From NCBI GenBank assembly GCA_018659145.1, contig JABJNB010000005.1, positions 14,039 to 78,038 on the forward strand: a stretch of DNA of 64,000 nucleotides, given 5' to 3'. Shown here in pieces: positions 6,120 to 39,768 of the stretch. The notes under the pieces are model-generated. The model was not told the origin of the DNA and did no database searches. It was given only the letters and a program-made list of their open reading frames with translations. Positions within the stretch are counted from its first letter, which is position 1, and every line of letters starts with the position of its first letter. A program made the position numbers and the translations under genes. The stretch is from Rickettsiales bacterium. Its GTDB lineage: Bacteria > Pseudomonadota > Alphaproteobacteria > Rickettsiales > JABIRX01.

Positions 6120-6752
6120 TTACTTGCTTGCCGCTTTCTCAGCCTTAGCTTGGCGCCTTGTTATACGTTTTACTAAGATATATGAGAGCAGTAATATAGC
6201 TACGTTCAAAATAGCAAATAGTGATAATTTATGAGCTACAACATTGTCATAGGCCATTAGATTACCGAAAGAAAATCCAAGTAAAGATAAGATAGATACC
6301 CAAATTAAAGCACCCAGACTCGTGTATAATGAGAACTTAACTATATCAATACCAACTATACCCGCTGGAAGAGAGATATACTGCCTTACACCTGGTAGCA
6401 AGCGACCAATAAAAGTGCTAAACAAGCCATGATCTGCAAAAAACTTCATAACTTTATCTAAACTAGCTTTTTTAATGCCAATATATTTACCATATTTAGC
6501 GAGTAATTTTAAGCCATATTTTTTAGCAAAATAATAATTAAAAAGAGCACCAACCAAACTACCTAAAACACCGGCAAAAATAACTCCATAAATATTATAA
6601 CGCCCTAGCGAAGCTAAAAAACCCGCTGGGATCATAACGATTTCACTTGGAAAGGGAAAAAAACTACTTTCCAAAGCCATTAATAAAAAGATTCCTAAGT
6701 AACCTATAGAATCTATGATTTCGTTAATAAAACTAAATATTTCTGTAAACAC
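6120..6752 (-). CDS. DedA family inner-membrane protein
   Basis: 210 aa, polytopic. It carries the DedA signature region LESSFFPFPSEIVMIPAGF and GRLLPGVRQYISLPAG. Confidence 0.75.
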   Translation of the reverse strand: MFTEIFSFINEIIDSIGYLGIFLLMALESSFFPFPSEIVMIPAGFLASLGRYNIYGVIFAGVLGSLVGALFNYYFAKKYGLKLLAKYGKYIGIKKASLDKVMKFFADHGLFSTFIGRLLPGVRQYISLPAGIVGIDIVKFSLYTSLGALIWVSILSLLGFSFGNLMAYDNVVAHKLSLFAILNVAILLLSYILVKRITRRQAKAEKAASK

Positions 6753-6754
6753 GA

Positions 6755-7753
6755 TTATCTAAAATTTTTTAATTGATTAAACTTCTGCATTGCCTTACCT
6801 GCATTAATTAAATCTCTAGCATACAGAATTGCCTCCTGCAAGCAAGTTTTTGCACCTACTAAATAAATAGCAAAAGCGCTGTTCAAAACTACATTATCTG
6901 CAAAGGCCGATTGCTCACCTTCTAACAGACTCACAATACGCTTTGCGTTATAATTAGAGTCTCCACCAACCAACTCATCGCTATTACAAAACTCTAAACC
7001 AAACTCTTTTGGATCAAAATCCCAAAACTTAATCTCTCCATCATTGAGTTCACAAATCTTCGTAACTCCTACAGTGGTGACTTCATCTGCACCATTAGCC
7101 CCATGCACAACGATAACTCTCTCACTACCATTATCACGCATTACCTCGCATATTGTCTCGGCTAAACTAAAGTCATAAACACCTATTAACTGACGCTTAA
7201 CACTAGCTGGATTTAATAATGGTCCCAGAATATTAAAAATTGTTCTTTGTCCGATTTTATTCCTAATCTCAGCAACATTTTTTAAAATGGGGTGATAAAG
7301 GGGCGCAAATAGAAATGCAATACCAATCTCAGATAAGCACGCTGCAGAACGTGACCTATCCAGCATAATATCCACACCCAAAGATGTTAATACATCTGAT
7401 GACCCAGACTTTGAAGACACACCTCTATTACCATGTTTGGCAACTTGAATACCAGCACTTGCAACAATAAATGCTGAACAAGTCGAAATATTTAAATAAT
7501 TTAAATTATCACCACCAGTACCGCATAAATCAATAGCATCTTCAAAACCCGTAATCTTATGGGAGCCAGCAAAAATAATATCACGCAAGATCTTAATTTC
7601 ATGATAAATATCAGCCTTATCATTTAGAGCTAATAAAAAAGCAATCACATCTGCCTCAGCATAACCATTACTAATAATGTTAGTAAATATCTTGATTAAT
7701 TCTGATTCGGATAATAACTCACCATTTTGTAATTTTGCTATATAAGTTTTCAT
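6755..7753 (-). CDS. trpD: anthranilate phosphoribosyltransferase-type protein (glycosyl transferase family 3)
   Basis: 332 aa. It has the canonical TrpD blocks DLCGTGGDNLNYLNISTCSAF, VAKHGNRGVSSKSGSSDVL and RTIFNILGPLLNPA. No other trp genes are in the window. Confidence 0.8.
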   Translation of the reverse strand: MKTYIAKLQNGELLSESELIKIFTNIISNGYAEADVIAFLLALNDKADIYHEIKILRDIIFAGSHKITGFEDAIDLCGTGGDNLNYLNISTCSAFIVASAGIQVAKHGNRGVSSKSGSSDVLTSLGVDIMLDRSRSAACLSEIGIAFLFAPLYHPILKNVAEIRNKIGQRTIFNILGPLLNPASVKRQLIGVYDFSLAETICEVMRDNGSERVIVVHGANGADEVTTVGVTKICELNDGEIKFWDFDPKEFGLEFCNSDELVGGDSNYNAKRIVSLLEGEQSAFADNVVLNSAFAIYLVGAKTCLQEAILYARDLINAGKAMQKFNQLKNFR

Positions 7754-8484
7754 GCTTTATCAATTGCAGTTAAGAATGCCTGCTCCAAAGTTTTAGCTTT
7801 ATACCTATCTTTAAACTCAGCTGGCTTACCTAGAAAAATAACTTCCGCCCCATGAATTACAGCAATCTTATCAGAAATCTCATCAATATCTGATAAAATA
7901 TGCGAGCTAAAAAATATAGTCTTTTGCTCTTTGCTATACTCACTCAGCAACTCTTTTAATCTAATTCTAACATGCGGATCTAATCCACTCATAGGCTCAT
8001 CTAATATTAATAATGGTGCCTCAGATAAAAACACCGAGATCAAGCCTAATTTCTGCCCCATACCTTTAGAATATTTTGCTATTTTTTGATCAAGGGATGC
8101 AATATCAAGATCAAGTTTTTGAGCAATTAATTTGGCCTTATCTGAATCATATTTCTTGTTAAACTGCTCTGATGATAAAGCTAGAAACTCATGTCCTTTT
8201 AAAAATTGCGAAGGGTAAAACTTCTCCGGCAGATATGATAGGTTCGCCCTAGAGTTATTATCAGACGAAGATTTATCATAAATTCTCACCTCTCCACTAT
8301 CTGGAGTTAATAAATCTAAAATTATTTTGAGGAGCGTAGTTTTTCCAATACCATTAACCCCTACTAATCCAAAAATATCACCTTTCTCAATAGTAAAATT
8401 AATATCCTTGAGTACTTCCCTACCCCCAAAGAATTTATTTAAGCCAACTATTTCAATCGCATTTATCCCTTGTTTCATTATCAC
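7750..8484 (-). CDS. ABC transporter ATP-binding protein (no permease adjacent)
   Basis: 244 aa. Walker A GVNGIGKTTLL, signature-like YSKGMGQKLGL, Walker B LLILDEP, H-loop SSHIL. It overlaps both neighbours by 4 nt. Confidence 0.8.
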   Translation of the reverse strand: MIMKQGINAIEIVGLNKFFGGREVLKDINFTIEKGDIFGLVGVNGIGKTTLLKIILDLLTPDSGEVRIYDKSSSDNNSRANLSYLPEKFYPSQFLKGHEFLALSSEQFNKKYDSDKAKLIAQKLDLDIASLDQKIAKYSKGMGQKLGLISVFLSEAPLLILDEPMSGLDPHVRIRLKELLSEYSKEQKTIFFSSHILSDIDEISDKIAVIHGAEVIFLGKPAEFKDRYKAKTLEQAFLTAIDKA

Positions 8485-9155
8485 CTTCCTTCTGTAATTG
8501 TTAGATTTTTACTAAGCAAAAATTTCTGATTTGTCTCCAGATAAAAACTAACATTAGCAATATTGTCAACTATCCGAATTATCATACCCCTCGGTAGGTC
8601 GGGATTATCCGCCGCCTTCTTTAAAATATATACAAATTTAGTATAACCAGTAACCCACTTAATCGCAACTCTGTTTCTAGTTACTTTCTCAATCTGAAAT
8701 TCCTCAGCCCCTCGGTTATCTTGGTTATATTTTTTACCATTTACCCAAACAATCCAACTGTCTGGCCCACTATAGAGAATTGAATTTAAATAAAACCTTA
8801 TTGAATTATTGGATATAGCTTCCTTAACCTCCTCTTTCTCCTTCTCCCTCTCTTTCTCTGGCTCATCTTTTTCAAATAAATCCTCTTGATCAATAGCCTC
8901 ACCTAATAATAAAGCAGATAGGATTTTATCTAATTGGCTTATCTGTTTCTTAGAATACAGGATACTATTTCCTTTTGAGATATCTTTAATGTGGTAATCA
9001 TAAACTGCAGAGCTCATAAAGTTATATTTTTTCTCACTTTCAACAATCGTAGATTCAGCATCAGGGTCTATTTGAGCAATATCATTGGAAACCTCTCCAG
9101 CATATAAACTATGACACAAAAATATTAATGTAAGACCAATGATTTTTATCATCAC
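8481..9155 (-). CDS. secreted PilP/GspC-HR-like pilus assembly protein (tentative)
   Basis: 224 aa. It has a signal peptide MMIKIIGLTLIFLCHSLYAG, an acidic EKEREKEKEE linker, and a C-terminal beta-rich block LNSILYSGPDSWIVWVNGKKY...FQIEKVTRNRVAIKW. That block resembles the PilP/GspC homology region. The call rests on this pattern and on position. Confidence 0.35.
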   Translation of the reverse strand: MMIKIIGLTLIFLCHSLYAGEVSNDIAQIDPDAESTIVESEKKYNFMSSAVYDYHIKDISKGNSILYSKKQISQLDKILSALLLGEAIDQEDLFEKDEPEKEREKEKEEVKEAISNNSIRFYLNSILYSGPDSWIVWVNGKKYNQDNRGAEEFQIEKVTRNRVAIKWVTGYTKFVYILKKAADNPDLPRGMIIRIVDNIANVSFYLETNQKFLLSKNLTITEGR

Positions 9156-9766
9156 AAACTCTTAAGATCGTTCCATCTGATATCAATTTCAGATAAGACG
9201 GGTGAAAATTTAGGATCTCGTGCAATTCGATATAAATTTGAATCATTTAAATCATGAGATTTCTTAATACTAAACTTTATCACTTGTGGATAACCTGGCA
9301 GCATAACTAAAATATCATACAAAAAATAAAATACTTGTATGTCAGTATATGACCTGATTTTGATTTTTAAAATTGTTGATTCTACACCAACCTTAACCCC
9401 CTTATACTTACCTTGTAATATTTCTGGTTTGGATAATTTAATATCTAGCTGGTTTAAATTATGCTTCTTTTTAACTCTATCAATAATTTCTTTAGCATCA
9501 CCCAGTTTTAAACCATTAAACTCTTTAACCTCATCTGTGATATATTCCCAAGTAGCTAAAGCTTCAGATATATCTTCAGTTTTGGTATTAAAATGATAAA
9601 TCTTAGCTTTAATTTGTTTGAGCTCGGATATCTCTTTTGTCTCACGCCGATCTAACTTTTTTAAATCATCGTATTTTTTATCACTAAAAATATAAGAACC
9701 GCTTATCATCACAAGGATTATAACAATTTTAGCAAATAATATAGCTTTTAACTTTTTTATAACCAT
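9152..9766 (-). CDS. bitopic PilO/GspM-like assembly protein (tentative)
   Basis: 204 aa. It has an N-terminal TM segment FAKIVIILVMISGSYIF, then a coiled-coil-like KKLDRRETKEISELKQIKAKI and a periplasmic domain. The call is based on architecture and position only. Confidence 0.35.
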   Translation of the reverse strand: MVIKKLKAILFAKIVIILVMISGSYIFSDKKYDDLKKLDRRETKEISELKQIKAKIYHFNTKTEDISEALATWEYITDEVKEFNGLKLGDAKEIIDRVKKKHNLNQLDIKLSKPEILQGKYKGVKVGVESTILKIKIRSYTDIQVFYFLYDILVMLPGYPQVIKFSIKKSHDLNDSNLYRIARDPKFSPVLSEIDIRWNDLKSL

Positions 9767-11358
9767 TACCTAACCGGGCCCACTACTTGTATGTTGATTG
9801 GTAGACTCTCTACAGTACTCTCAAAGCTAATAGTGTCTGGTAACTCCGAATGATCTATATCATACTTAGGAAAACCAGTCTTAATAGATCTAAGAAATGC
9901 ATCATATGCTGAGAAAACCTCTTCAAATGACAGACCTTCAGATTTAAAATGCGCCGAGATTACAAGCTTCATTTGCGTTTCTTTATATACCTCCCAATCA
10001 ATATCAGACATAATAATGTTGCTAGGCAGAAAATTATAAAATTCAAATATCATCTTTATTGGATCTTGAGCATCATTCATTAATTTCTTATGCAGAAAAG
10101 CTACATCAATCACCTTATCTTCATCAATATCAAAACCAAATTTTTTCTCCCTAATTGTTTCTAACTGACCCGCATATCTATTCTTATCAGCAACATTAAA
10201 CTTTATCGAGTCCTTCATTAAGGATATTCTATAAAGAGGTAATACCGCTAAAGCTGCCGTTATCACAAGCATACTAGCTAAGCAGACAGTAGCAATAATA
10301 TTATTATCTAGTAATGAAGATGCCGACTTTAGTTTTGGTGTAATAAATCCATTATATAATCCACTACTGACAAAGTAATTTATAAATAACTTATCCGGCT
10401 CAGCATCATAATCTAGGTTTTTATGATCACGAAATTTTAATTCTCCAAATAACTGTAAATTAATATAAACAAAATTATAATTTGGTAGATCAAATTTTTG
10501 AAAGAATGCATTGAATTTATTATCAACAAAAAGATAAATATTAATGCCATCTTGCTCCTTAAAATCCAGCCGCTTTAAATACTCTATCGTGCCTATCATC
10601 TCATTTTTAATTACCTCCACCCTCTCTTCTATGAACGGACCTTCCTCAAAACTATAATGTAGCAAACGTGTAAAGACTAAATCACCATCTTTAATAATCG
10701 TGAATCTAATACCACTAGTCTCACTTTGAAAAACATAAAATGTCCATTTAGATGCACCCTTCTCTTCTTGCGGAACTTTATCTTTAACCTTAAAATTAAC
10801 TTTCGTTTTTTTGACAACCTTACTGTCTGGATTAATACCCGACTCCTGCTCTGCTAAAAACTTAACTATATCACATTCAATAGCTTGTAGCTCAACCGGA
10901 AAGGAATATATAGCGCGTATAATATTGGGCATATTATCTAAAAAAGATAACCACTCTTTCAATGGAGAAACAGTTGGAATCTTAACTAAAATACAATCTG
11001 TACTTTTTTTCTTACCATTATTATTAGAAACTTTATAATAGCCCTTTATGACATTCTCCCCACCCTTTTTTGGAGCAACTTTACGACTTATTAATTTGCT
11101 GAATAAAAAAGGATTAGATGTTGGTATTGATATTGCTTCAAAAGATTGCTCTGAAACATTTAACACTATATAAATCGGTAATTTTTGATATTTTAATAAC
11201 AAAGCTGCCAATTCTTTCATTTGAGCTTTATCACTAATATCAGCAATTTTAATATCCTCAATAATAGCTGATTTATGATAAATCAAAACCTTAGCAAAAT
11301 TATCGCCTAAGAGGATAACGATCTTTTTGAATGTTAATTTATGCAAAAAAATATTCAT
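9766..11358 (-). CDS. bitopic PilM+PilN / GspL-like assembly protein (tentative)
   Basis: 530 aa. It has a soluble N-terminal part of about 350 aa, a single TM segment IIATVCLASMLVITAALAVLPLY, and a C-terminal domain of about 150 aa. This architecture matches GspL or fused PilM-PilN. It sits directly after the platform gene. Confidence 0.4.
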   Translation of the reverse strand: MNIFLHKLTFKKIVILLGDNFAKVLIYHKSAIIEDIKIADISDKAQMKELAALLLKYQKLPIYIVLNVSEQSFEAISIPTSNPFLFSKLISRKVAPKKGGENVIKGYYKVSNNNGKKKSTDCILVKIPTVSPLKEWLSFLDNMPNIIRAIYSFPVELQAIECDIVKFLAEQESGINPDSKVVKKTKVNFKVKDKVPQEEKGASKWTFYVFQSETSGIRFTIIKDGDLVFTRLLHYSFEEGPFIEERVEVIKNEMIGTIEYLKRLDFKEQDGINIYLFVDNKFNAFFQKFDLPNYNFVYINLQLFGELKFRDHKNLDYDAEPDKLFINYFVSSGLYNGFITPKLKSASSLLDNNIIATVCLASMLVITAALAVLPLYRISLMKDSIKFNVADKNRYAGQLETIREKKFGFDIDEDKVIDVAFLHKKLMNDAQDPIKMIFEFYNFLPSNIIMSDIDWEVYKETQMKLVISAHFKSEGLSFEEVFSAYDAFLRSIKTGFPKYDIDHSELPDTISFESTVESLPINIQVVGPVR

Positions 11359-11359
11359 G

Positions 11360-12559
11360 TTACTTTATCGTACTAAAACTAGAATAAAGTGGGCCAAATA
11401 CTGATAATGATATCCACAACAACAACCCTCCCATCACCAAAGTCAGCACAGGTTGAATTAAGCCAATTAATGAGTCCACTGCATCATTTACTTCCTTATC
11501 ATAAAAAAATTTAATATTTTCCAATGATTCAGTCATATTTCCCGTTTGCTCGCCAACCCTAAACATACGCACAACCAAGCTTGGGAATTGATTTGACTTT
11601 TTTAAAGCTAAACTCATTGTCGAGCCATCCGATATTTCTTGTGTAATTTCTGCTAAAGTTCTTTTAACCACCCTATTTTTCACAACTTTTTCTACTACCT
11701 GTAAACAAGCTATAATATCAATTCCACTTTTATAAGTAATTAGAAAGAACTGTGTGAATCGCGCTATATCAATTTTTAGTAATGCCTTACCAATAAACGG
11801 AATATTGAGTATTAGTTTATCTGTATAATAAGCATAAGATTCTACAAAAAATTTCAATAGCTTATGCAAGAAAACAGTAACACCTGGGATAATTATCATC
11901 AAAGCCCAATTTTGCTTGAAAAATTCCGAGGAGGCTATCAATGCCTTGGTATAAAATGGTAAATCAAAATTCTGATTTAGTAAAAAATCTGATAATTTCG
12001 GTATAACAAAAAGCATCATAATTGCTGTTACAGCAAATAACACAACTAATAAGAAAATTGGATATTTTACAGCCTTTTTAGTCTTACGCTTAATATCATC
12101 CGCCCATTTTAGATGGTCTGACAAATAAGCAAATGACTGATGCAATTTACCAGTTTTTTCTCCCGCAGCTATTAGACCTATAAATACTTCGTCAAAAGTT
12201 TTAGGATGGTTTGACATAGCTTGTGATAACATCTTACCAGATTTAACATCATCATAAATATCTTGAACTAGGTTACGCATGACATTACCTGATGCCGAAT
12301 CTATCAAATCTTCAATTGATTCAATAATTGGCACCCCGGCCTTATCCAACTGTTCAAAATGTGTGCATATCAAAATCAAATCTTTGACAGAAATTGTTTT
12401 AGTGAAATTAAAAAATGAGGAGGATGACTCACTTGCAGTAATAAGCTCCAAACCTATATCAGATAGTTTATACTGCAGGTCAGATAATCCACTAGCATTC
12501 ATACTACCCTTAAACTGCTTGCCTTGCTCTGAAACTGCTATGTAGCTATAATTTGCCAT
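11360..12559 (-). CDS. type IV pilus / type II secretion platform protein (PilC/GspF family)
   Basis: 399 aa. It has the duplicated GspF-type repeat with AAGEKTGKL and RVGEQTGNM motifs and three hydrophobic segments. Its ATG overlaps the ATPase stop codon (TAATG). Confidence 0.8.
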   Translation of the reverse strand: MANYSYIAVSEQGKQFKGSMNASGLSDLQYKLSDIGLELITASESSSSFFNFTKTISVKDLILICTHFEQLDKAGVPIIESIEDLIDSASGNVMRNLVQDIYDDVKSGKMLSQAMSNHPKTFDEVFIGLIAAGEKTGKLHQSFAYLSDHLKWADDIKRKTKKAVKYPIFLLVVLFAVTAIMMLFVIPKLSDFLLNQNFDLPFYTKALIASSEFFKQNWALMIIIPGVTVFLHKLLKFFVESYAYYTDKLILNIPFIGKALLKIDIARFTQFFLITYKSGIDIIACLQVVEKVVKNRVVKRTLAEITQEISDGSTMSLALKKSNQFPSLVVRMFRVGEQTGNMTESLENIKFFYDKEVNDAVDSLIGLIQPVLTLVMGGLLLWISLSVFGPLYSSFSTIK

Positions 12560-14367
12560 TAAAGCCTCTCTGTCATATCAACCGAGCGAACCAATTCTGG
12601 AATTGAGATCACGCCTTCTATAACTTTATTTATTCCATCCCGGTCCATAGCTATAAAACCTTCGCTGATAGCTTGATCATAGATTTCATTGGTTGTTTTA
12701 TTCAAAGAGATCATTTCACTAATTTTTCTTGATACAACAAAAATTTCTGACGCAACTATACGGCCTTTATAACCCGTATTCATACAAGACTTACAAGATG
12801 AAGCTTTGAAAATCTGCGTAGGTTTATCTATCTCCAAGATCCTACACTCTTCTTCTGTTGCCATATACCCGACCTTACATTCAACACATAAACGCCTGAC
12901 TAATCTTTGCGCCACAGCGCATACTAATGAACCAGCTAATAAGAATGGTTTAATTCCAACATCTATTAACCTTGGCACAACACTAATTGCATCATTTGTA
13001 TGCAGGGTTGTAAATACCTGGTGACCTGTCATAGCTGCCCTAAGTGCAATAGAAGCTGTTTCAGCATCTCTAACCTCACCCACAAATATAACATCTGGAT
13101 CTTGCCGCAATAATGATTTTATCCCATCAACAAAACCTATACTACCTTCCTTCACATTTGATTGACGAATTAAAGGCAGTTCATACTCAACTGGATCTTC
13201 CAATGTCATAATATTCTTATGAATATTGTTAATCATATTCAGCACTGAATATAAAGTGGTAGTTTTACCAGAACCCGTTGGACCAGTTACGATAATAATG
13301 CCATCTGGCTTTAAAAACATTTTCTTAAGCACATTAATATTATGCTGACTATAACCCAGTTTATCCAAACTCACTAATGAACGAGTTTTATCAAGAATAC
13401 GCATCACTATGTTTTCGCCATGAACTGTGAGCTGAGTAGCTACACGAAAATCAACCTCACGCCCCAATACAGTAGCCGCGGCATGCCCATCTTGTGACTT
13501 CCTACTCTCAGCAATATTCATACCCGACATAATTTTAATCCTAACAGCAACCGCAGCCCAGAACTCCTTATGAAAAGTTTTAATTTGCTGCATCCTTCCA
13601 TCAATTCGATAACGCACTCTAAGAAAATTTGCTTCTGGCTCAAAGTGAATATCAGAAGCCCCACAATGCACAGCATCAATTAAAAACGAGTCTACTAATC
13701 TAACCACAGGATTTCGAAAATCTTCTCCTGTAGATTCCGTTTCAATGCCTTGAGTATTATTTTCAATTTCTTTTAAAACGCCATCTATTGACATCTCATA
13801 TTCATAATATTGATCAACTATATCTAAAATATCAACTTCACTACAGAATATTGGATCAATGGTCATCCCTTGTGGAAAATATTTTTTAACCTTATCAATT
13901 GCAATCACATCAAAAACATCATGCACAGCAACAGAAACTACATTACCCTTTAATGCTACGGGCACTATTTTATATTTTAAGGCAACATCCTTCGGTAATT
14001 TCCGAACTAATTCACTATCTAAAACAACATTTTTAATATCAAATTTTTCAATTCCGGAAGTCTGGCTAATAGCCTCCCCCAAAACAGACTCAGTTATAAA
14101 CCCTAGCAACACAAGAACTTCTCCTATATTGCCTGCATTCATTCTCTTTTCTTCTTTTTTAGCCATCTCAAGCTGATCTTCTGATATACAACCTTTCTCT
14201 AACAAGGTTTTTCCCAATTCATCATCCGGCGACAAATTATCATCTAATACCTGTGAATCGTCTATAGAGTTACTTTCTAGTTCCTGCTTGACTTGAGATT
14301 GTAACTCTTGATTAGAGGCTATATCAGTATTTTTATTGATCTCGTCTTGTTTCATTAACTCATCCAT
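12559..14367 (-). CDS. type IV pilus / type II secretion assembly ATPase (PilB/GspE family)
   Basis: 602 aa. It has an N-terminal GSPII_E_N-like domain (LPKDVALKYKIVPVAL), Walker A GPTGSGKTTTLYS, Asp box LEDPVEY, Walker B IFVGEVRD, His box TGHQVFTTLHTN, and a tetra-Cys cluster CVECK...CKSC. Confidence 0.85.
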   Translation of the reverse strand: MDELMKQDEINKNTDIASNQELQSQVKQELESNSIDDSQVLDDNLSPDDELGKTLLEKGCISEDQLEMAKKEEKRMNAGNIGEVLVLLGFITESVLGEAISQTSGIEKFDIKNVVLDSELVRKLPKDVALKYKIVPVALKGNVVSVAVHDVFDVIAIDKVKKYFPQGMTIDPIFCSEVDILDIVDQYYEYEMSIDGVLKEIENNTQGIETESTGEDFRNPVVRLVDSFLIDAVHCGASDIHFEPEANFLRVRYRIDGRMQQIKTFHKEFWAAVAVRIKIMSGMNIAESRKSQDGHAAATVLGREVDFRVATQLTVHGENIVMRILDKTRSLVSLDKLGYSQHNINVLKKMFLKPDGIIIVTGPTGSGKTTTLYSVLNMINNIHKNIMTLEDPVEYELPLIRQSNVKEGSIGFVDGIKSLLRQDPDVIFVGEVRDAETASIALRAAMTGHQVFTTLHTNDAISVVPRLIDVGIKPFLLAGSLVCAVAQRLVRRLCVECKVGYMATEEECRILEIDKPTQIFKASSCKSCMNTGYKGRIVASEIFVVSRKISEMISLNKTTNEIYDQAISEGFIAMDRDGINKVIEGVISIPELVRSVDMTERL

Positions 14368-14414
14368 TTATTAAAATTATTTATCATGATTTATTACGAA
14401 TTATGACTACCTGC

Positions 14415-15155
14415 TTATTTCTCTAACGAGACTTGCATATAGCAATATATATTGCTATCAAACTTTCTATAAAAAAATAAATTATTTTCAACCATCCGTA
14501 CACATAACTGCTGGCCTAGGCCCCCATATTCTAAACTACCCATATCAGCTATGACACTACCTGACATCGGGATCCCATCATCAATTTTGTAATCAACATA
14601 ATGACTATCCTTTGGAGATAAGATACTATCTAAAATATTACCCTGACTTCTAGCCTTTGCAAATCTAACAAAATTCTTACCTAAATGCTCAATATTATAA
14701 TTAATTATATGTAGCTTCGTATCACCCAAAAGCTGAATATCACTATCAATAAACTTACTGCGCGCTACATTGACTCTAGTCTTAGCATAGGAATAAACCA
14801 TACCCCCTTCTATTCCCCAGAAATAAAGACCACTAAACGTCAAATGATTAAAGGCTAAAAAACCTTCGGCAATATTACCAATATACTCATCTCCATTACC
14901 ATCGCAGCCAAGATTATATAAAATTAATAATTTTTGACATTCCACCTGCCATAATTTATTGGCATAAGGGAAGTCTCCCGGTAGAAAATTATTCTGATCT
15001 TTAAAAGTCAAAATCTTCGCCTTGATATCCTGAACTTCAAATAGGAAGTTTTTTAACTGAGAATTATAAACTAAATTTTGACCAAGTAATGTAGAGCAAA
15101 TAATTAAACTGATGATCACAAGCGAAATGGCAAGTTCTAACAACGAACTATTCAT
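14415..15155 (-). CDS. type IV pilin-like protein with a non-canonical class III signal
   Basis: From the ATG at 15155 the protein starts MN-SSLLELAISLVIISLIICS. This has the conserved Glu at position +5 and a hydrophobic alpha1-N helix, but Asn rather than Gly at -1. A C-terminal Cys...Cys loop (LCVRMVENNLFFYRKFDSNIYC) resembles a pilin D-region. The ORF-track start at 15191 is a TTG. Confidence 0.6.
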   Translation of the reverse strand: MNSSLLELAISLVIISLIICSTLLGQNLVYNSQLKNFLFEVQDIKAKILTFKDQNNFLPGDFPYANKLWQVECQKLLILYNLGCDGNGDEYIGNIAEGFLAFNHLTFSGLYFWGIEGGMVYSYAKTRVNVARSKFIDSDIQLLGDTKLHIINYNIEHLGKNFVRFAKARSQGNILDSILSPKDSHYVDYKIDDGIPMSGSVIADMGSLEYGGLGQQLCVRMVENNLFFYRKFDSNIYCYMQVSLEK

Positions 15156-15178
15156 ACGAACATTCTTTAAGTAGAAAT

Positions 15179-15721
15179 ATGCAAAAATCAAACAAATTTA
15201 TTACATCCTCTCTAATTATTTTACTACTGAGCACAGCTATCTATAAATTTTCTAAAATAACTAGCTCCAACACATCATCCCATGGAAAGCAAAGCAAAGT
15301 TAATCTCAAAATATCCGGATATGCCAAAATAATTGATGGAGACTCAATAATTGTCGATAATTATGAAATAAGACTAAAAGCTATTGATGCGCCAGAATTT
15401 TATCAAAACTGCCAAAACTCAAAACAAGAAACTTATCCTTGTGGTAGAAAGGCTATGCAATATCTGGAAAATTTAACCGCAAATAAAAAAGTAACCTGCC
15501 AAAGTTATGCCACAGACATTTATGATAGATATCTATCCTCATGCTATGTCGGTAATATCGATATAGCCATAGATATGCTCGAACATGGCTGGGCAGTAAT
15601 ATACCGCATGCCTTCACCACTATACAAACATCAAGAACAGGCAAGAATAAGCAAGCTAGGCCTATGGCAAGGAGAGTTCACCTACCCACAGATATGGCGG
15701 AAGCTGAATAAGAGAAAATGA
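15179..15721 (+). CDS. membrane-anchored or secreted thermonuclease (staphylococcal nuclease, SNase fold)
   Basis: 180 aa. It has an N-terminal hydrophobic anchor SSLIILLLSTAIY and SNase motifs IIDGDSIIVDNYEIRLKAIDAPE, DRYLSSCYV, LEHGWAVIY and ARISKLGLWQG. Confidence 0.75.
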   Translation: MQKSNKFITSSLIILLLSTAIYKFSKITSSNTSSHGKQSKVNLKISGYAKIIDGDSIIVDNYEIRLKAIDAPEFYQNCQNSKQETYPCGRKAMQYLENLTANKKVTCQSYATDIYDRYLSSCYVGNIDIAIDMLEHGWAVIYRMPSPLYKHQEQARISKLGLWQGEFTYPQIWRKLNKRK

Positions 15722-15948: not shown

Positions 15949-16530
15949 CTATTTAACCCAACGCTTAATTCCATCATCATGAATAGAGAGCAAATCAAGC
16001 GCCCGAGCAACAGAATAATCAACTAGGTCATCGATTGCTTTTGGCTTAGTATAAAAAGCTGGAACTGGCGGCATTATAATAGCACCAGCGAGTGTTGCCT
16101 TTTGCATATTATCAATATGTATCAAATTAAAAGGTGTTTCCCGGAGCATTAATACCAACTTACGCCTTTCTTTTAACATCACATCCGCAGCACGGCTTAG
16201 CAGATTATTACAATTACCAGTAGCAATAGATGCTAAAGTTTTTACCGAACATGGCGCAATAATCATGCCATCAGTGATAAAAGAACCGCTAGCTATTGTA
16301 CTAGCTATATCATTTGCATTATAATGAAAATCAGATAACTCTATAACATCACGAATTTTATAATCGGTTTCCAAATCAAGAGTAATATTAGCAGATTTAG
16401 TGATAACTAAATGAGTTTTGACATTAGGCACTGCTTTGAGCTTTTCAAGCAGCCTAATACCATAAATACTACCCGAAGCCCCAGAGATACCTATAATAAT
16501 ATTTTTCTCTAAACCTCCAGAATTAAGCAT
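15949..16530 (-). CDS. ubiX: flavin prenyltransferase UbiX
   Basis: 193 aa. IIGISGASGSIYGIRLLEKL, APCSVKTLASIATG and LLSRAADVMLKERRKLVL are typical of UbiX/Pad1. Confidence 0.85.
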   Translation of the reverse strand: MLNSGGLEKNIIIGISGASGSIYGIRLLEKLKAVPNVKTHLVITKSANITLDLETDYKIRDVIELSDFHYNANDIASTIASGSFITDGMIIAPCSVKTLASIATGNCNNLLSRAADVMLKERRKLVLMLRETPFNLIHIDNMQKATLAGAIIMPPVPAFYTKPKAIDDLVDYSVARALDLLSIHDDGIKRWVK

Positions 16531-16532
16531 AA

Positions 16533-16844
16533 TTAAGCGACATTTTCTAATATGTCTTCTGCTGGGATTTCAGTCTCAACTTCACCATTCATACCAATCG
16601 CTTTTTTATAGATTTCAACCATAGACTCTAATTCAAAAAGATCATTACTATCTAACTTTCGTAATTTTAATACTTCACGAATAATTTTTACATCAAAACC
16701 AATCGACTTAGCTTCTTGCATTACATCCTTGATATCATCAGCTATCGCCTTTTTATCCTCTTCTAAACGCTCTACTTTTTCGATAATTTGTTTTAATGTT
16801 GTGCCATCGACACCACCGACCATACTTGTCATAATAAACCTCAT
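16533..16844 (-). CDS. gapR: GapR / DUF2312 (UPF0335) nucleoid-associated protein
   Basis: 103 aa. LKQIIEKVERLEEDKKAIADDIKDVMQEAKSIGFDVKIIREVLKLRK is the conserved DUF2312 core, a family restricted largely to Alphaproteobacteria. Confidence 0.7.
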   Translation of the reverse strand: MRFIMTSMVGGVDGTTLKQIIEKVERLEEDKKAIADDIKDVMQEAKSIGFDVKIIREVLKLRKLDSNDLFELESMVEIYKKAIGMNGEVETEIPAEDILENVA

Positions 16845-16990
16845 AATTAAAAAAACTTTAAATAGCTGATTTCTTGAAAAATACCATCAAAATTAAGATG
16901 TTTTAATTTTTTCCTTTAAAACAAGCCAAATTACTATAGAAGATTTTATCCCTGAATTACAGGATGCAAGTGAACATACTATGAAATAAT

Positions 16991-18136
16991 ATGAAGATTT
17001 TTATTATTGCGGGCGAATCCTCCGGTGATTTATTGGGCGCAAAATTAGTTAAAGAATTAAATAAACGCTTTAAATCATTAAAAATAACTGGAGTTGGTGG
17101 TGAGCAATTGATTAATGCTGGCTTAGAACCTATTTTTAACCTTAAAGATATTTCGGTAAATGGCTTAATTGAAGTAATTCCACATATCCCTAGATTGCTT
17201 TCGCGAATAAATGCATCTGTGGATGCTATTATTAATTTCCAGCCAGACCTTATTATTACCATAGATGCGCCTGATTTTAACTTCAGAGTAATAAAAAAAT
17301 TAAAACAAAGAGCTCCTAATCTAAATAGTAAGATTGTACATTACGTCGCTCCTACCGTTTGGGCTTACCGAAAGAAACGAGCTAAAAAAATTGCACAACT
17401 ATATGATTTATTGCTCGTTATATTGCCATTTGAACCACCCTATTTTGAAGATCATGGACTAAAAACTAATTTTATTGGTCATCCAATTTTCTCCGATTTC
17501 CAGCCAAAGGAAGTCACTAGAAAGAGTAATAATGTCATCATCACTCCCGGCAGCAGAAGATCTGAGATTTTGCGATTTAAATCAATGCTCAAAGAACTTA
17601 TCTACTTAATCAAATCAAATTTTGGAACCAAATTTAACCTCCATCTTTTTGTAACGCAAGAAACAAAAGACCTAATTTACAGCATATATGAGCAGGAGAT
17701 CAAAAAATCTGAGGTCAATATAGTAATTAAAAATACTAAAAAAGCAGAGATTTTAGATGACTGTTATCTAGCTATTTTAAAATCAGGAACAAATACTATG
17801 GAGTTAGCCAACGAATCTATAGCAATGATAATATTTTATAGATTTAGTACCCTAACTTACTTTATCGCAACCAAGATATTACGTGTAAAATCTCGTTATG
17901 CAAACTTACTTAACTACCAAGCTAATCACGCAATCATCCCCGAATACCTACATGCCCGCTGCAAAGCTGATCTAATTTATCAAGAATTTCGTAATTATTA
18001 TTATCATAAAGAAAAAAGATATGATCAAATTGCAGCTTATAGCAAAATAATCAGTAAATTTAAGAACCCTGATCAAATTTCTCCAGAGACTAAAGCCGTA
18101 AACGCTATAGAAGAGTTATTTAATAAAAAAGTGTAA
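16991..18136 (+). CDS. lpxB: lipid-A-disaccharide synthase
   Basis: 381 aa. MKIFIIAGESSGDLLGAKL, PDLIITIDAPDFNFRV and HYVAPTVWAYRKKRAKK match LpxB signature blocks. Confidence 0.8.
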   Translation: MKIFIIAGESSGDLLGAKLVKELNKRFKSLKITGVGGEQLINAGLEPIFNLKDISVNGLIEVIPHIPRLLSRINASVDAIINFQPDLIITIDAPDFNFRVIKKLKQRAPNLNSKIVHYVAPTVWAYRKKRAKKIAQLYDLLLVILPFEPPYFEDHGLKTNFIGHPIFSDFQPKEVTRKSNNVIITPGSRRSEILRFKSMLKELIYLIKSNFGTKFNLHLFVTQETKDLIYSIYEQEIKKSEVNIVIKNTKKAEILDDCYLAILKSGTNTMELANESIAMIIFYRFSTLTYFIATKILRVKSRYANLLNYQANHAIIPEYLHARCKADLIYQEFRNYYYHKEKRYDQIAAYSKIISKFKNPDQISPETKAVNAIEELFNKKV

Positions 18137-18403: not shown

Positions 18404-18835
18404 CTACCACAATGACAATCCTACCGCTCCCTGATTCTTTAAACTAAATACATTGCCAAATAATGTTTCATGACCAAATGGAATTGGTGGGTAATTAGTA
18501 CCAGGTAGCTTCGGCAACATACCAGCTTCATTTAAAGTACCAGTAGCATAGTGACGACAATAGATCATGGCAGCAGGCCATGCTTTTAAATACATTTTAT
18601 TTCCTGACTTAATCATGTCTAAATCTTTTTTATACTTATAAAAATAGCGATAATAATCTGTAGCAAACCCCGTTGCTAGACCGGACTCACATCCATCTAA
18701 CCAAGCAGATTGATAAACCGCAGGTCCATCTGGCATCATTTTGAATACCTTGGTATTTGGTGCAAAAATATTATGTTTTGTCAAATTGCAGCCTGTGATA
18801 AAAAATAATAATGTAATTAAAATAAATGTTCGCAT
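18404..18835 (-). CDS. lipoprotein, paralog P1 of the tandem 'DGC' family
   Basis: From the internal ATG at 18835 the protein starts MRTFILITLLFFITGC, which is a lipobox. It has the shared domain YQSAWLDGCESG...YLKAWPAAMIYC. Confidence 0.6.
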   Translation of the reverse strand: MRTFILITLLFFITGCNLTKHNIFAPNTKVFKMMPDGPAVYQSAWLDGCESGLATGFATDYYRYFYKYKKDLDMIKSGNKMYLKAWPAAMIYCRHYATGTLNEAGMLPKLPGTNYPPIPFGHETLFGNVFSLKNQGAVGLSLW

Positions 18836-18843
18836 ATATAACT

Positions 18844-19317
18844 CTAACAAAAAACTGTTTTGCACCCTTTAAACATATTATTCCACCAAACTCCACCACC
18901 TGATGACTCACTCTCGCCAAATAATTGTATACCATCATGCGACCACGGAGTTGGAACACCCTGATCAAGTGGAAAATCAATTTTAGGTCTACCAGCTCCC
19001 CAGAAATTTTGATGCGCAGGAGCTAAATCACTATCTATTGTTTTAAATGCTCTTCGATTAATTATGTGGAAACAATAAATATAACCACGGTACCATGAAT
19101 GAAAATATTCATCATCCGTTATTAGATAAGGATCCTGTTCAAACTTATAAAATGTACGCATCATACTATTTCCTCTTGATGAATGCGCAGAATCACAACC
19201 ATCACGCACACCTTTTACTGTCTGATAAGAACCTTCCTGTGGTAAATGAATCGTATAAGGACTTACTGAGCAAGAACACAAAAAATATAATAATGAAATT
19301 AATAATATCTTTCTCAT
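18844..19317 (-). CDS. lipoprotein, paralog P2 of the tandem 'DGC' family
   Basis: Signal and lipobox MRKILLISLLYFLCSC. Shared domain YQTVKGVRDGCDSA...FHSWYRGYIYC. Confidence 0.6.
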   Translation of the reverse strand: MRKILLISLLYFLCSCSVSPYTIHLPQEGSYQTVKGVRDGCDSAHSSRGNSMMRTFYKFEQDPYLITDDEYFHSWYRGYIYCFHIINRRAFKTIDSDLAPAHQNFWGAGRPKIDFPLDQGVPTPWSHDGIQLFGESESSGGGVWWNNMFKGCKTVFC

Positions 19318-19322
19318 CCTAC

Positions 19323-19958
19323 CTATAAAAACGATTTTCTATCAGGTGATACCATAATATCATAATATCTTTGACACCACCAAAATGCCGTTTGCCAACC
19401 CTTCTCGAATGCTGGATTAAAATGATCTCCTTCAATCCATTTAGCACTTTTAATAAACGTATAAACCATTTTATGATGACTTTGACCTGTAGCTGCCTTT
19501 CCAGTGATACAGCCTTCCTTCCAACCTTCACGAAAAGCATATGGACCAGGAGGAGCATCATGAAGCAGGTTATGCTTTTTTGTCCATGGCATAGATTGAA
19601 CTTGAAATGTCCAATCTGCTTTAAAAAATGACATCCTATTTCTGGATTGATAAGGAATCCATAATCCACAATAAATATAGACACTACGCCACATACTACG
19701 GTAAATCGGAGATTTATTATTCATATCAGCATTCATATACATACCTTTACCATGTAAAGCCAAAATATTTTGGTTATTTTCCTGCGACGCAGTAGCGCAT
19801 CCATCAACAAATGCAGCTTGATAATCAGGTGGTCCTGGAGGAGGCCTCAAGTCTAATAAGGCAGGTTTAGTAAAATAATCAAACATTGAGGTCGCATTAC
19901 AAGCTACTAAAGAAAATAGCAGCATAAGAGATATGAGAAATCTTTTTATATAATTCAT
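19323..19958 (-). CDS. lipoprotein, paralog P3 of the tandem 'DGC' family (two domain copies)
   Basis: From the ATG at 19958 the protein starts MNYIKRFLISLMLLFSLVAC, which is a lipobox. It has two copies of the domain: DYQAAFVDGCATA...YRSMWRSVYIYC and YAFREGWKEGCITG...FEKGWQTAFWWC. Confidence 0.6.
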   Translation of the reverse strand: MNYIKRFLISLMLLFSLVACNATSMFDYFTKPALLDLRPPPGPPDYQAAFVDGCATASQENNQNILALHGKGMYMNADMNNKSPIYRSMWRSVYIYCGLWIPYQSRNRMSFFKADWTFQVQSMPWTKKHNLLHDAPPGPYAFREGWKEGCITGKAATGQSHHKMVYTFIKSAKWIEGDHFNPAFEKGWQTAFWWCQRYYDIMVSPDRKSFL

Positions 19959-19962
19959 ATAT

Positions 19963-35775: not shown

Positions 35776-35878
35776 ATTACTATTTTCTAATCTTAGTATT
35801 AGGCTTGCTATTTTGACAAAAAGTTAGCAAGTTAAAGACTAGATTCAGCCTATTAGATTAATACTCCTTTTGCAAAAC

Positions 35879-39766: not shown

Positions 39767-39768
39767 TA

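What the first reader, a model, noticed from the sequence alone, without database searches (positions are those of the whole stretch)
8481..15155. Compact type IV filament gene set with no secretin or prepilin peptidase, a fused PilM/N-like protein and a pilin lacking the -1 glycine
Seen in the sequence: on the minus strand there is a pilin-like gene, then five tightly packed genes. In order these are a GspE/PilB ATPase, a PilC/GspF platform, a 530-aa bitopic protein (about 350 aa cytoplasmic, one TM, about 150 aa periplasmic), a 204-aa bitopic protein and a 224-aa secreted protein with a PilP/GspC-HR-like beta block.

The pilin N-terminus is MN|SSLLELAISLVII. It has Glu at +5 and the hydrophobic helix, but Asn where the near-invariant Gly at -1 should be, and at most a 2-residue leader.

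Established knowledge: PilD-type peptidases require Gly (rarely Ala) at -1. Gram-negative type IV pilus and type II secretion systems need an outer-membrane secretin that docks on PilP/GspC. Classical Rickettsiales genomes are not known for type IV pili.

Inference: this is either a minimal or divergent type IV filament machine with its secretin and peptidase encoded elsewhere, or a periplasmic pseudopilus (T2SS-like or competence-like) of a lineage-specific type.
Basis: partly seen in the sequence, partly recalled or inferred. Interest (0 to 1): 0.75.

Follow-up and report, generated by a model that had tools for sequence, protein, structure and literature searches.

The report
Type IV pilus genes with leaderless pilin
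A marine Rickettsiales genome carries an intact, conserved type IV pilus assembly operon whose pilin has lost the cleavable leader peptide that all such pilins are thought to need, so the pilus may be built without the usual processing enzyme.

Summary
On the minus strand at 8481-15155 lie six tightly packed intact genes. They are a pilin, a PilB-type ATPase with an MshEN domain, a PilC/GspF platform, a 530-aa bitopic protein, a 204-aa bitopic protein and a 224-aa exported protein.

- **530-aa protein.** An AlphaFold model (pLDDT 91) matches PilM, FtsA and GspL cytoplasmic domains. It continues through one TM helix into a two-fold alpha-beta-beta domain, so it is a PilM-PilN fusion with GspL-like architecture.
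- **204-aa protein.** It is a paralogue of that periplasmic domain, as PilO is of PilN.
- **224-aa protein.** Its C-terminal beta domain weakly matches GspB and the GspC HR domain.
- **Family size.** These accessory families have no Pfam model but are large (820 representatives for the fusion protein).
- **Pilin.** It belongs to a family of about 2500 proteins, most of which carry the prepilin N_methyl domain. Of the 120 best hits, 97 have a Gly(-1)...Glu(+5) site and most of the rest Ala at -1. In this Rickettsiales lineage alone (10 loci) the leader is reduced to Met plus 0-3 residues, with no Gly or Ala at -1.
- **Selection.** All genes are under purifying selection.
- **Not found.** No secretin or A24 peptidase lies in the 64 kb. 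The rest of the genome could not be searched.

Verdict: a real, divergent T4aP-like machine; the leaderless pilin is a new variant.

The parts
14415..15155 (-). Type IV pilin (246 aa) with a vestigial 2-residue leader (MN) and no Gly/Ala at -1. It has Glu at the position homologous to +5, an N-terminal hydrophobic helix (5-23) and a conserved C-terminal Cys pair (C218/C238).
   Evidence: - BLASTP to the canonical prepilin of L018 (leader MKRHHSFQQG|FTMVE): E=5e-15.
- Profile search: 2509 relatives, most carrying PF07963 N_methyl.
- Of the top 120, only this lineage lacks a leader.
- Alignment A8.
- No upstream in-frame start codon in 6 of 10 orthologous loci.
- dN/dS 0.09-0.16.
12559..14367 (-). 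Extension ATPase of PilB type (602 aa): N-terminal MshEN domain, Walker A GPTGSGKT at 362, and a tetracysteine motif (CVEC at 494, CKSC at 525).
   Evidence: - Pfam T2SSE 5e-114 and MshEN 5e-14.
- NCBIfam PilB 478 bits and GspE 473 bits, both below the equivalog cut-offs; c-di-GMP motif domain 40.8 bits against a cut-off of 38.
- Best PDB relatives over the full length are PilF and PilB (1e-117 to 1e-108); GspE matches the core only.
- Motifs located.
11360..12559 (-). Platform protein PilC/GspF (399 aa, 3 TM helices).
   Evidence: - Pfam T2SSF x2, 5e-48.
- NCBIfam GspF 278 bits, PilC 223 bits, both below cut-offs.
- 63-90% identical in orthologous loci.
- dN/dS 0.03.
9766..11358 (-). PilM-PilN fusion with GspL-like architecture (530 aa): cytoplasmic actin-like domain 1-335, TM helix 354-372 continuing as a coiled coil to about 406, and a periplasmic alpha-beta-beta x2 domain at 413-527.
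   Evidence: - AlphaFold2 on a 144-sequence alignment: pLDDT 91.2.
- Foldseek against PDB: PilM 5eou/2ych/3jc8_Ma at 3e-8 to 6e-7, GspL/EpsL 4pht/1yf5/5tkw at 8e-7 to 1e-5, and FtsA.
- Weak profile hit to PilN 3jc8_Na, E=0.09.
- No Pfam hit in any of 87 family members.
- Family of 820 representatives.
9152..9766 (-). PilO/GspM-like bitopic protein (204 aa; TM helix 9-27).
   Evidence: - hhalign of its family (A3) against the periplasmic part of the p530 family: probability 91.7%, E=7.8e-7, 125 columns.
- It always sits directly after the fusion gene.
- No Pfam, NCBIfam or PDB sequence hit.
8481..9155 (-). Exported protein (224 aa): signal sequence, a disordered acidic linker, a short conserved helix, and a C-terminal beta domain (119-221) resembling the secretin-binding HR domain of GspB, GspC and PilP.
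   Evidence: - AlphaFold2: pLDDT 80-93 for residues 119-221 only.
- Foldseek top hit Dickeya GspB 4wfw: E=0.03, probability 1.0, rmsd 2.2 A over 46 columns.
- ETEC GspC-HR 3oss_C: E=0.27, probability 0.77.
- Pfam T2SSB: E=0.035 at residues 130-163.
- The evidence is weak but comes from two independent methods.
7750..8484 (-). ABC-type ATPase (244 aa, DrrA/GldA-like) with no adjacent permease. It overlaps the PilP-like gene by 4 nt and is a conserved extra member of the module.
   Evidence: - NCBIfam drrA 2.5e-40 and GldA 1e-37, all below cut-offs.
- It follows the PilP-like gene in all Rickettsiales loci that reach that far.
- It also follows it in distant loci L016, L018, L020 and L023.
- It is absent there in L021 and L022.
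15179..15721 (+). SNase-family nuclease (180 aa) with an N-terminal membrane anchor or signal. It is divergently transcribed head-to-head with the pilin gene.
   Evidence: - Pfam SNase in relatives; weak NCBIfam EcnA / SNase-like hits.
- The start codons of the nuclease and pilin genes are 23 nt apart here and overlap by up to 11 nt in relatives, across all 10 loci of the lineage.
- The nuclease is not next to the module in the distant loci.

Best explanation
This is a functional, vertically inherited type IV pilus (T4aP-like) assembly operon of a marine, environmental Rickettsiales lineage.

Proposed mechanism, with the basis for each step:

1. A PilB-type hexameric ATPase with an MshEN N-domain drives a PilC/GspF platform. 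Shown by family assignment.
2. The motor is held in an inner-membrane alignment complex, shown at fold or profile level. The complex consists of a PilM-PilN fusion (the architecture GspL has in T2SS), a PilO-like paralogue and a periplasmic PilP/GspC-HR-like protein.
3. A DrrA-like ABC ATPase is a conserved, unexplained extra component.
4. The single pilin inserts into the inner membrane through its N-terminal hydrophobic helix and is polymerised from there. Inferred.
5. In this lineage the pilin's class III leader has shrunk to Met plus 0-3 residues, and no Gly or Ala precedes the mature-type N-terminus. Relatives of the same pilin family keep a canonical leader. Shown.
6. The pilin therefore cannot be a substrate of a PilD-type peptidase and does not need one. 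The filament is probably assembled from unprocessed or only Met-trimmed, non-N-methylated subunits. Inferred.
7. The HR-like domain implies that an outer-membrane secretin exists elsewhere in the genome. Inferred; not tested.
8. Likely roles are attachment to a eukaryotic host cell, or DNA capture. The conserved head-to-head secreted nuclease and a ComEC gene in the window make DNA or nucleotide scavenging a plausible second role. Speculative.
For: - **Gene content and order:**
- **Conservation:** the whole array is conserved in more than 10 loci forming two subclades.
- **Selection:** dN/dS is 0.03-0.38 for every gene. Near-identical metagenome copies carry no frameshifts (L009-L011).
- **Fusion protein:** p530 has a PilM/GspL fold at pLDDT 91.
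- **p204:** paralogous to the p530 periplasmic domain.
- **p224:** GspB / GspC-HR similarity from Foldseek and, independently, from Pfam.
- **ATPase:** closest to PilF/PilB over its full length, including the N-domain.
- **Retraction ATPases:** PilT/PilU genes flank the module in distant relatives.
- **Pilin homology:** to canonical N_methyl prepilins.
- **Leader loss:** specific to this lineage and not a gene-start artefact.
- **Lineage:** the rvh T4SS genes VirB9 in the window and TrbL/VirB6 in L019 place it in Rickettsiales.
- **Literature:** T4P components are reported in basal and DDG-clade Rickettsiales (PMC9352585, PMC10847448).
Against: - No secretin, prepilin peptidase, PilT or minor pilins lie in the 64-kb window or in the flanks of relatives. 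A complete outer-membrane-spanning, retractile pilus is therefore not demonstrated for this lineage.
- The position of the acidic residue varies: 5, 6 (Asp), 7 or 8 from the Met, and it is absent in L007. This is unexpected if the Glu5 to N-terminus salt bridge is strictly required.
- The PilP-like assignment rests on E-values of 0.03-0.3.
- NCBIfam equivalog cut-offs for PilB, GspE, PilC and GspF are all missed.
- There are no expression or protein data.
Confidence: 0.72

Rival explanations
1. It is a type II secretion-like pseudopilus rather than a surface pilus. E, F, an L-like fusion, an M-like protein, a C/B-like HR protein and one G-like pseudopilin would push exoproteins, for example the adjacent SNase nuclease, out through a secretin encoded elsewhere.
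For: - The PilM-PilN fusion is the GspL architecture, and GspL cytoplasmic domains are among the Foldseek hits.
- The platform scores best with the GspF model.
- p224 matches GspB and GspC-HR.
- Some pilin relatives are named 'GspH family' by NCBI.
- A secreted nuclease gene is always head-to-head with the pilin gene.
Against: - The ATPase N-terminus is an MshEN domain, as in PilB/PilF, and GspE matches only the core.
- PilT/PilU retraction ATPases accompany the module in distant relatives.
- There is no GspD, and no GspH-K set; only one pilin gene is present.
- Pfam T2SSL, T2SSM and T2SSC are not matched by any of 87 family members or by the window proteins.
Confidence: 0.15
2. It is a DNA-uptake (competence-type) pilus or pseudopilus. 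The filament would capture extracellular DNA, the membrane-anchored SNase nuclease would process it, and ComEC would import it for recombination or as a nucleotide source.
For: - The nuclease and pilin genes are strictly conserved head-to-head across the lineage.
- A ComEC competence-domain gene lies at 39769-41025 in the same window.
- The one-pilin gene set is compact, as in Com systems.
Against: - The nuclease association is absent in the distant relatives that share the module.
- ComEC lies 25 kb away, and by my recollection (not checked here) it also occurs in bacteria not known to be competent.
- No ComEA, DprA or ComF was looked for or found near the cluster.
- The ATPase is far from ComGA (227 bits against 478 for PilB).
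Confidence: 0.2
3. The pilin is processed normally. On this view the true start codon or processing site was misjudged, and a PilD-type peptidase encoded elsewhere cleaves a real leader.
For: - In the window a TTG 12 codons upstream could add MIFAYFYLKNVR.
- The L005 N-terminus reads MFG|SILE, with a Gly.
Against: - Six of 10 orthologous loci have no in-frame ATG, GTG or TTG upstream before a stop.
- No locus has Gly or Ala at the position aligned to -1 of the canonical homologue, apart from the off-register Gly in L005.
- The putative extension is not conserved and overlaps the nuclease start.
- A recent review states that the leader 'invariably ends with Gly or Ala' (PMC10191384).
Confidence: 0.05
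4. It is a decaying, non-functional remnant of an ancestral pilus locus in a reduced genome.
For: - The genome is reduced and AT-rich (GC about 34%).
- No secretin, peptidase, PilT or minor pilins are nearby.
- The c-di-GMP motif of MshEN has lost the leading Arg in both repeats, judged by reading against the motif as I recall it from the literature.
Against: - All genes are intact in more than 10 divergent loci.
- dN/dS is 0.03-0.38.
- Translationally coupled overlaps are preserved.
- Catalytic motifs of the ATPase are intact.
Confidence: 0.03

Closest known systems
Type IVa pilus machinery (PilA, PilB, PilC, PilD, PilMNOPQ, PilT) of Pseudomonas, Myxococcus and Thermus
   Same: - The extension ATPase is closest to PilF/PilB, including the MshEN-type N-domain.
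- There is a PilC-type platform.
- There is an actin-like PilM domain, a PilN/PilO-like paralogue pair and a PilP-like HR domain.
- The pilin has an N-terminal hydrophobic helix, a Glu and a C-terminal disulphide.
- PilT/PilU lie next to the module in distant relatives.
   Different: - PilM and PilN are one polypeptide.
- PilM, N, O and P are unrecognisable to the Pfam and NCBIfam models.
- The pilin has no leader peptide and no Gly/Ala(-1).
- No PilD, PilQ, PilT or minor pilins lie in the window.
- There is an extra ABC ATPase.
- The pilin is large (246 aa).
Type II secretion system inner-membrane assembly platform (GspE-F-L-M-C, GspB)
   Same: - GspL is the known example of an actin-like cytoplasmic domain, a TM helix and a PilN-like periplasmic domain in one chain. 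GspL cytoplasmic domains are Foldseek hits.
- GspM-like and GspC/GspB-HR-like partners follow the fusion gene.
- The platform scores best with GspF.
   Different: - The ATPase N-terminus is MshEN/PilB-like, not a GspE N1 domain.
- There is no GspD and no GspH-K.
- There is no PDZ or coiled-coil domain of the GspC type.
- Retraction ATPases are present in relatives.
MSHA pilus (MshE ATPase with a c-di-GMP-binding MshEN domain; MshI, MshJ, MshK, MshL)
   Same: - The ATPase carries MshEN and passes the NCBIfam c-di-GMP motif domain cut-off (40.8 against 38).
- The genes are clustered in a single locus.
   Different: - No MshL secretin, MshM, MshN or Msh minor pilins are present.
- Both 24-residue motif copies lack the leading Arg (E and N instead), by reading. 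c-di-GMP binding is therefore uncertain.
Myxococcus xanthus PilGHI ABC transporter required for T4P biogenesis (recalled from the literature, not checked here)
   Same: A DrrA/ABC-2-type ATPase is genetically linked to a T4P locus.
   Different: No permease or PilG-like gene lies next to it here. No sequence comparison with PilH was made.

Membership tests
Type IV filament superfamily (core set: pilin, prepilin peptidase, extension ATPase, platform; PMC10191384) | Extension ATPase of the GspE/PilB family | tested here: met
   Pfam T2SSE 5e-114. PDB PilF/PilB 1e-117 to 1e-108. Walker A and tetracysteine motif present.
Type IV filament superfamily | Polytopic platform protein (PilC/GspF) | tested here: met
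   Pfam T2SSF, two stretches, 5e-48.
Type IV filament superfamily | Pilin with a class III signal peptide: a hydrophilic leader ending in Gly/Ala, then a hydrophobic helix, often with Glu5 | tested here: not met
   The hydrophobic helix and Glu are present, and homology to N_methyl prepilins is clear. The leader, however, is only Met plus 0-3 residues with no Gly/Ala at -1 in all 10 loci. Pfam N_methyl and TIGR02532 are not matched.
Type IV filament superfamily | Prepilin peptidase (Peptidase_A24) in the genome | not testable with these tools
   None was found among the ORFs of at least 120 aa in the 64-kb window that were scanned (two ORFs of 143 and 157 aa and three overlapping ORFs were skipped). 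The rest of the genome and the related MAGs could not be searched.
T4aP | PilM (actin-like) plus PilN, PilO and PilP alignment complex | tested here: inconclusive
   At fold or profile level the features are met for PilM and for the PilN/PilO-like pair, and weakly for PilP. At sequence-family level none is met, and PilM and PilN are fused.
T4aP | Secretin PilQ and retraction ATPase PilT | not testable with these tools
   Neither is in the window. PilT/PilU are present next to the module in distant relatives. The whole genome is not available.
T2SS | GspD secretin, GspG plus GspH-K pseudopilins, and GspL, GspM, GspC recognisable by their family models | tested here: not met
   There is one pilin gene only and no secretin in the window. 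No T2SSL, T2SSM or T2SSC hit was found. Only the GspL-like architecture and a weak T2SSB/GspC-HR similarity are seen.
MSHA pilus | MshE-type ATPase with a c-di-GMP-binding MshEN domain | tested here: inconclusive
   MshEN 5e-14. The NCBIfam c-di-GMP motif scores 40.8 bits against a cut-off of 38. The first residue of both motif copies is not Arg.
MSHA pilus | MshL, MshM, MshN and Msh pilins in one locus | tested here: not met
   They are absent from the locus.

The most novel reading that the evidence does not exclude
This Rickettsiales lineage assembles a type IV filament from a naturally leaderless pilin and has dispensed with the prepilin peptidase and N-methylation altogether. That would make it the first T4F system lacking one of the four supposedly universal core components. 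A further possibility is that the filament works without a dedicated secretin, as a periplasmic or host-contact pseudopilus.
Probability: 0.4. Interest if true: 0.85.

Novelty: new variant of a known kind. Interest (0 to 1): 0.62.

Why it matters
A recent review (PMC10191384) states that every type IV filament system has a pilin, a prepilin peptidase, an ATPase and a platform. It also states that the pilin leader 'invariably ends with Gly or Ala'.

A pilin family in which one lineage has deleted the leader, while keeping the whole machine under purifying selection, is a natural experiment on several open questions:
- what leader cleavage and N-methylation are for;
- whether the Glu5 to N-terminus register is essential;
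- whether the peptidase can be lost.

The work also uncovers large unannotated families (820 representatives for the PilM-PilN fusion, with its PilO-like and PilP-like partners) and a conserved ABC ATPase. Because the current Pfam and NCBIfam models used here miss the three accessory families and this lineage's pilin, pilus machines of this type may be under-annotated in many genomes and MAGs.

For Rickettsiales biology, it gives a concrete candidate apparatus for host attachment or DNA scavenging in the environmental relatives of obligate intracellular pathogens.

Tried and rejected
- **Sequence-only searches on the accessory proteins gave nothing significant.** Pfam and NCBIfam on the four unassigned proteins returned no significant hits. 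Profile searches of the p530, p204 and p224 families against PDB sequences gave only PilN at E=0.09. Pfam on 87 members of the p530 family gave no pilus family at all.
- **The word-indexed homologue search was far too insensitive for p530.** It found 12 proteins against 820 from the exhaustive profile search. It failed for p224, returning 3 hits, probably because of the low-complexity linker.
p204 and the pilin therefore have no 3D model.
- **The exact look-up of the window ATPase found nothing**.
- **The secretin search was local only.** phmmer with the CpaC secretin of L016 against all ORFs of the window and all loci found only the query itself.
- **No second pilin was found.** A regex for class III signal peptides in all six frames of the window gave no hit, and phmmer with the pilin found one pilin per locus.
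- **The promoter and terminator scan was uninformative.** It found 33 promoter-like sites against 48 expected by chance, and no terminator after the pilin gene.
- **Supplementary files of PMC10847448 did not help.** They hold no per-genome PilQ/PilD table that could be mapped to this lineage.
- **The context of a canonical-leader pilin from another 'Rickettsiales bacterium' MAG (L024)** showed no pilus genes nearby.
- **Four small genes at 18404-20286 were considered as minor pilins and rejected.** They are paralogous lipoproteins.

Full report
**1. What is in the sequence**

- a 246-aa pilin-like protein (14415-15155);
- a 602-aa ATPase (12559-14367);
- a 399-aa polytopic protein (11360-12559);
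- a 530-aa protein (9766-11358);
- a 204-aa protein (9152-9766);
- a 224-aa protein (8481-9155).

From the ATPase gene downstream, neighbouring genes overlap by 1-4 nt or lie 1-2 nt apart. The same tight packing continues into an ABC ATPase (7750-8484), trpD (6755-7753) and a DedA/UptA-like gene (6120-6752).

Hydropathy confirms the topologies. p530 has one TM helix at 354-372. p204 has one at 9-27. p224 has an N-terminal signal sequence. The pilin has a hydrophobic helix at 5-23.

The window has about 34% GC. It also encodes a VirB9/CagX gene. A close relative carries TrbL/VirB6 paralogues next to the same cluster. This fits the 'Rickettsiales bacterium' labels of the related MAGs.

**2. The two recognisable motor proteins**

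The ATPase matches Pfam T2SSE (5e-114) and MshEN (5e-14). NCBIfam scores PilB (478 bits) and GspE (473 bits) almost equally, and both fall below their equivalog cut-offs.

Against PDB sequences, the best full-length matches, including the N-terminal domain, are the T4aP ATPases PilF of Thermus and PilB of Geobacter and Myxococcus (1e-117 to 1e-108). GspE aligns only from residue 218 onward. Walker A and the tetracysteine motif are intact.

The NCBIfam c-di-GMP motif domain is just above its cut-off (40.8 against 38 bits). In both 24-residue repeats, however, the first position is E or N (sequence). As I recall the published MshEN motif, that position is Arg, so c-di-GMP binding is uncertain.

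The platform matches T2SSF twice and scores best with the GspF model.

**3. The three 'unassigned' proteins**

None has a Pfam or NCBIfam hit.

*Size of the p530 family.* A word-indexed search found only 12 relatives of p530, all from marine Rickettsiales or 'Alphaproteobacteria' MAGs. An exhaustive profile search found 820 cluster representatives, 263 of them below 1e-30. None of 87 members tested matches any pilus family in Pfam.

*Structure of p530.* An AlphaFold2 model built on 144 sequences has mean pLDDT 91. It shows:
- a two-lobed alpha/beta domain at 1-335;
- a single long helix at 341-406 (TM helix plus coiled coil);
- a C-terminal domain at 413-527 whose last six elements read alpha-beta-beta-alpha-beta-beta. 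As I recall, this is the topology of PilN, PilO, GspM and the periplasmic part of GspL.

Foldseek against the PDB returns an actin-fold protein of unknown function (3hrg) as the top hit. The characterised hits are PilM (5eou, 2ych, 3jc8_Ma; 3e-8 to 6e-7), FtsA, and the cytoplasmic domains of GspL/EpsL/PulL (4pht, 1yf5, 5tkw; 8e-7 to 1e-5), all at probability 1.0. The family profile also weakly touches M. xanthus PilN (E=0.09).

p530 is therefore a PilM-PilN fusion, which is the architecture GspL has in T2SS.

*p204.* Its family aligns with the periplasmic part of the p530 family in a profile-profile comparison (probability 91.7%, E=7.8e-7, 125 columns). This is the PilN/PilO (GspL/GspM) type of paralogy.

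*p224.* Only 20 sequences could be supplied, and only the C-terminal beta domain (119-221) is modelled with confidence. The best Foldseek hit is the periplasmic domain of Dickeya GspB (4wfw; E=0.03, probability 1.0, rmsd 2.2 A over 46 columns). The GspC HR domain from the GspC-GspD complex (3oss_C) also appears (E=0.27, probability 0.77). Independently, Pfam gives a sub-threshold T2SSB hit on the same residues (130-163, E=0.035).

I take this as weak but convergent support for an HR-type (PilP/GspC/GspB) domain. By my recollection of those systems, this is the module that docks on secretins.

**4. The pilin**

No Pfam or NCBIfam model recognises it. Even so, it aligns at E=5e-15 with a 269-aa protein next to a p530 homologue in a distant locus (L018). 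That protein has a textbook class III signal peptide (MKRHHSFQQG|FTMVELSIVLVIIG) and matches TIGR02532.

In that alignment, window S3 corresponds to F+1 and E7 to E+5.

A profile of 11 orthologues finds 2509 relatives, most carrying PF07963. Among the 120 best, 97 have G(-1)...E(+5), about 19 have Ala at -1, and only the three from this lineage lack a leader.

The N-termini across ten loci of the lineage are:

| Locus | N-terminus |
|---|---|
| window | MNSSLLE |
| L003 | MSSSLLE |
| L001 | MQYSLLE |
| L004 | MQFSLFE |
| L005 | MFGSILE |
| L019 | MSSSSFFE |
| L002 | MFSFLD |
| L008 | MSFIE |
| L015 | MTFIE |
| L007 | MTFIG |

In the second subclade the initiator Met sits exactly at the position of residue +1.

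This is not a gene-calling artefact. Six of the ten loci have no in-frame ATG, GTG or TTG upstream before a stop codon. The upstream DNA is occupied by the divergent nuclease gene, whose start codon is 23 nt away here and overlaps the pilin start in L019, L007 and L015.

Other features argue for a functional pilin. These include the PGD motif after alpha1, the K-[IL]-D-D-G-x-P motif, a C-terminal Cys pair and dN/dS of 0.09-0.16.

A recent review states that the leader 'invariably ends with ... Gly or Ala'. [quoted passage not shown] My literature searches found no report of a natural leaderless pilin. That is absence of evidence within one library only.

**5. Conservation and wider context**

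The order nuclease <-> pilin-ATPase-platform-p530-p204-p224-ABC-trpD recurs in L001-L005, L007, L008, L014, L015 and L019. Protein identity ranges from about 30% to 90%. Near-identical metagenome contigs (L009-L011) carry no disruptions. Pairwise dN/dS against L001 and L003 is 0.03-0.38 for all genes; dS is saturated, so these are rough values. The 'decaying duplicate' alternative is therefore rejected.

In distant genomes that look alphaproteobacterial from their neighbouring genes (L016, L018, L020, L021, L022, L023), the core platform-p530-p204-p224 persists. In four of these six loci it is followed by the same kind of ABC ATPase. In three of them, PilT/PilU-like ATPases and a TPR protein are close by, and L018 also has a TPR protein followed by a truncated T2SSE-family gene. 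No secretin lies next to the module in any of them; L016 has only a Tad-type CpaC/CpaD pair.

The accessory proteins are thus not lineage-specific. They define an unannotated, widespread variant of the T4aP alignment complex. What is specific to the Rickettsiales lineage is the loss of the leader and the head-to-head nuclease.

**6. Secretin and peptidase**

I scanned 40 of the window's ORFs of at least 120 aa outside the cluster with Pfam. I skipped three that overlap longer genes and two small ones (143 and 157 aa). No Secretin or Peptidase_A24 domain was found.

phmmer with a secretin found nothing in the window or in any fetched locus. There is no other class III signal peptide in any frame of the window.

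This covers only 64 kb of a genome that is probably over 1 Mb; family-level genome sizes in the supplementary table of PMC10847448 are 0.85-1.9 Mb. My one scan of the genome collection had already been used. Genome-wide absence is therefore untested.

The HR-like domain of p224 argues that a secretin partner exists. The missing cleavage site argues that the peptidase is dispensable for this pilin.

**7. Mechanism and function**

*Shown:*
- a complete inner-membrane T4F motor and alignment complex with a single pilin;
- purifying selection on all of it;
- a pilin that cannot be a PilD substrate.

*Inferred:*
- The pilin is inserted N-in/C-out by its hydrophobic helix and is polymerised without cleavage or N-methylation.
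- The variable register of the acidic residue suggests relaxed or altered N-terminal packing.

*Speculative:*
- The function may be host attachment, as proposed for pili of Deianiraea-clade Rickettsiales in PMC10847448 and PMC9352585.
- It may also be DNA capture and scavenging, given the conserved nuclease partner and the ComEC gene at 39769-41025.
- The role of the conserved ABC ATPase is unknown. From memory, M. xanthus PilGHI is a precedent for an ABC system needed for T4P.

**8. Comparison and verdict**

The system works like a T4aP machine that has a T2SS-like fused PilM-PilN (GspL-type) subunit. It fails formal membership tests in several ways:
- the pilin lacks a class III signal peptide;
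- the PilM, N, O and P sequence models are not matched;
- PilD, PilQ, PilT and minor pilins are not found locally.

T4P 'components' in environmental Rickettsiales are already in the literature, so the existence of the cluster is not new.

New points are:
- the lineage-wide leaderless pilin;
- the fold-level identification of three large unannotated accessory families;
- the conserved ABC ATPase;
- the nuclease pairing.

I rate it a new variant of a known kind, with interest about 0.6. That would rise to about 0.85 if whole-genome searches show that the lineage has no prepilin peptidase.

Noticed in passing
window 18404-20286 (-): Four tandem paralogous lipoprotein genes (107, 234, 157 and 153 aa). 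Each has a lipobox Cys and a shared 'DGC' motif. The three ORFs scanned (153, 157 and 234 aa) have no Pfam hit. Four small genes with no recorded Pfam hit occupy the matching position beside lpxB in L001; their homology was not tested. They are not pilins.
   Followed up: partly
window 25873-27404 (-): A VirB9/CagX gene (252 aa) and an adjacent 258-aa protein with no Pfam hit lie between sucA and icd. This looks like a scattered piece of the Rickettsiales rvh type IV secretion system.
   Followed up: no
window 35870-41025 (+): A 1298-aa ORF with no Pfam hit is followed 3 nt later by a 418-aa ComEC-family protein. The ComEC protein has only the 'Competence' membrane domain (PF03772) and no beta-lactamase domain.
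   Followed up: no
window 15155-15179; L019 6176-6179; L007, L008, L015: The pilin gene and the SNase nuclease gene are divergent, with start codons 23 nt apart in the window. The start codons overlap (CATG) in L019 and L007 and by 11 nt in L015; in L008 they lie 2 nt apart. Each gene's promoter must therefore lie inside the other gene's coding sequence.
   Followed up: partly
window 7750-8484 (-); L016 13674-14396; L018 13474-14211; L020 13163-13888; L023 13543-14292: A DrrA/GldA-like ABC ATPase with no neighbouring permease follows the PilP-like gene. This holds in the Rickettsiales loci that reach that far and in four of six distant loci, which suggests it is an uncharacterised component of this pilus module.
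   Followed up: partly
window 2368-3684 (+): A 438-aa protein with hydrophobic N-terminal segments and no Pfam hit. L001 has a 429-aa gene with no Pfam hit at 16104-17393, which may be its counterpart; this was not compared.
   Followed up: no
L006 (contig CAXPEK010000112.1): A 2.3-kb contig carrying this Rickettsiales-type cluster is binned in a 'Candidatus Actinomarina' MAG. This is probably a binning error.
   Followed up: no
window 47279-50914 (+): A 1211-aa ORF with only a weak Pyr_redox_2 match in its middle. It is otherwise unassigned.
   Followed up: no
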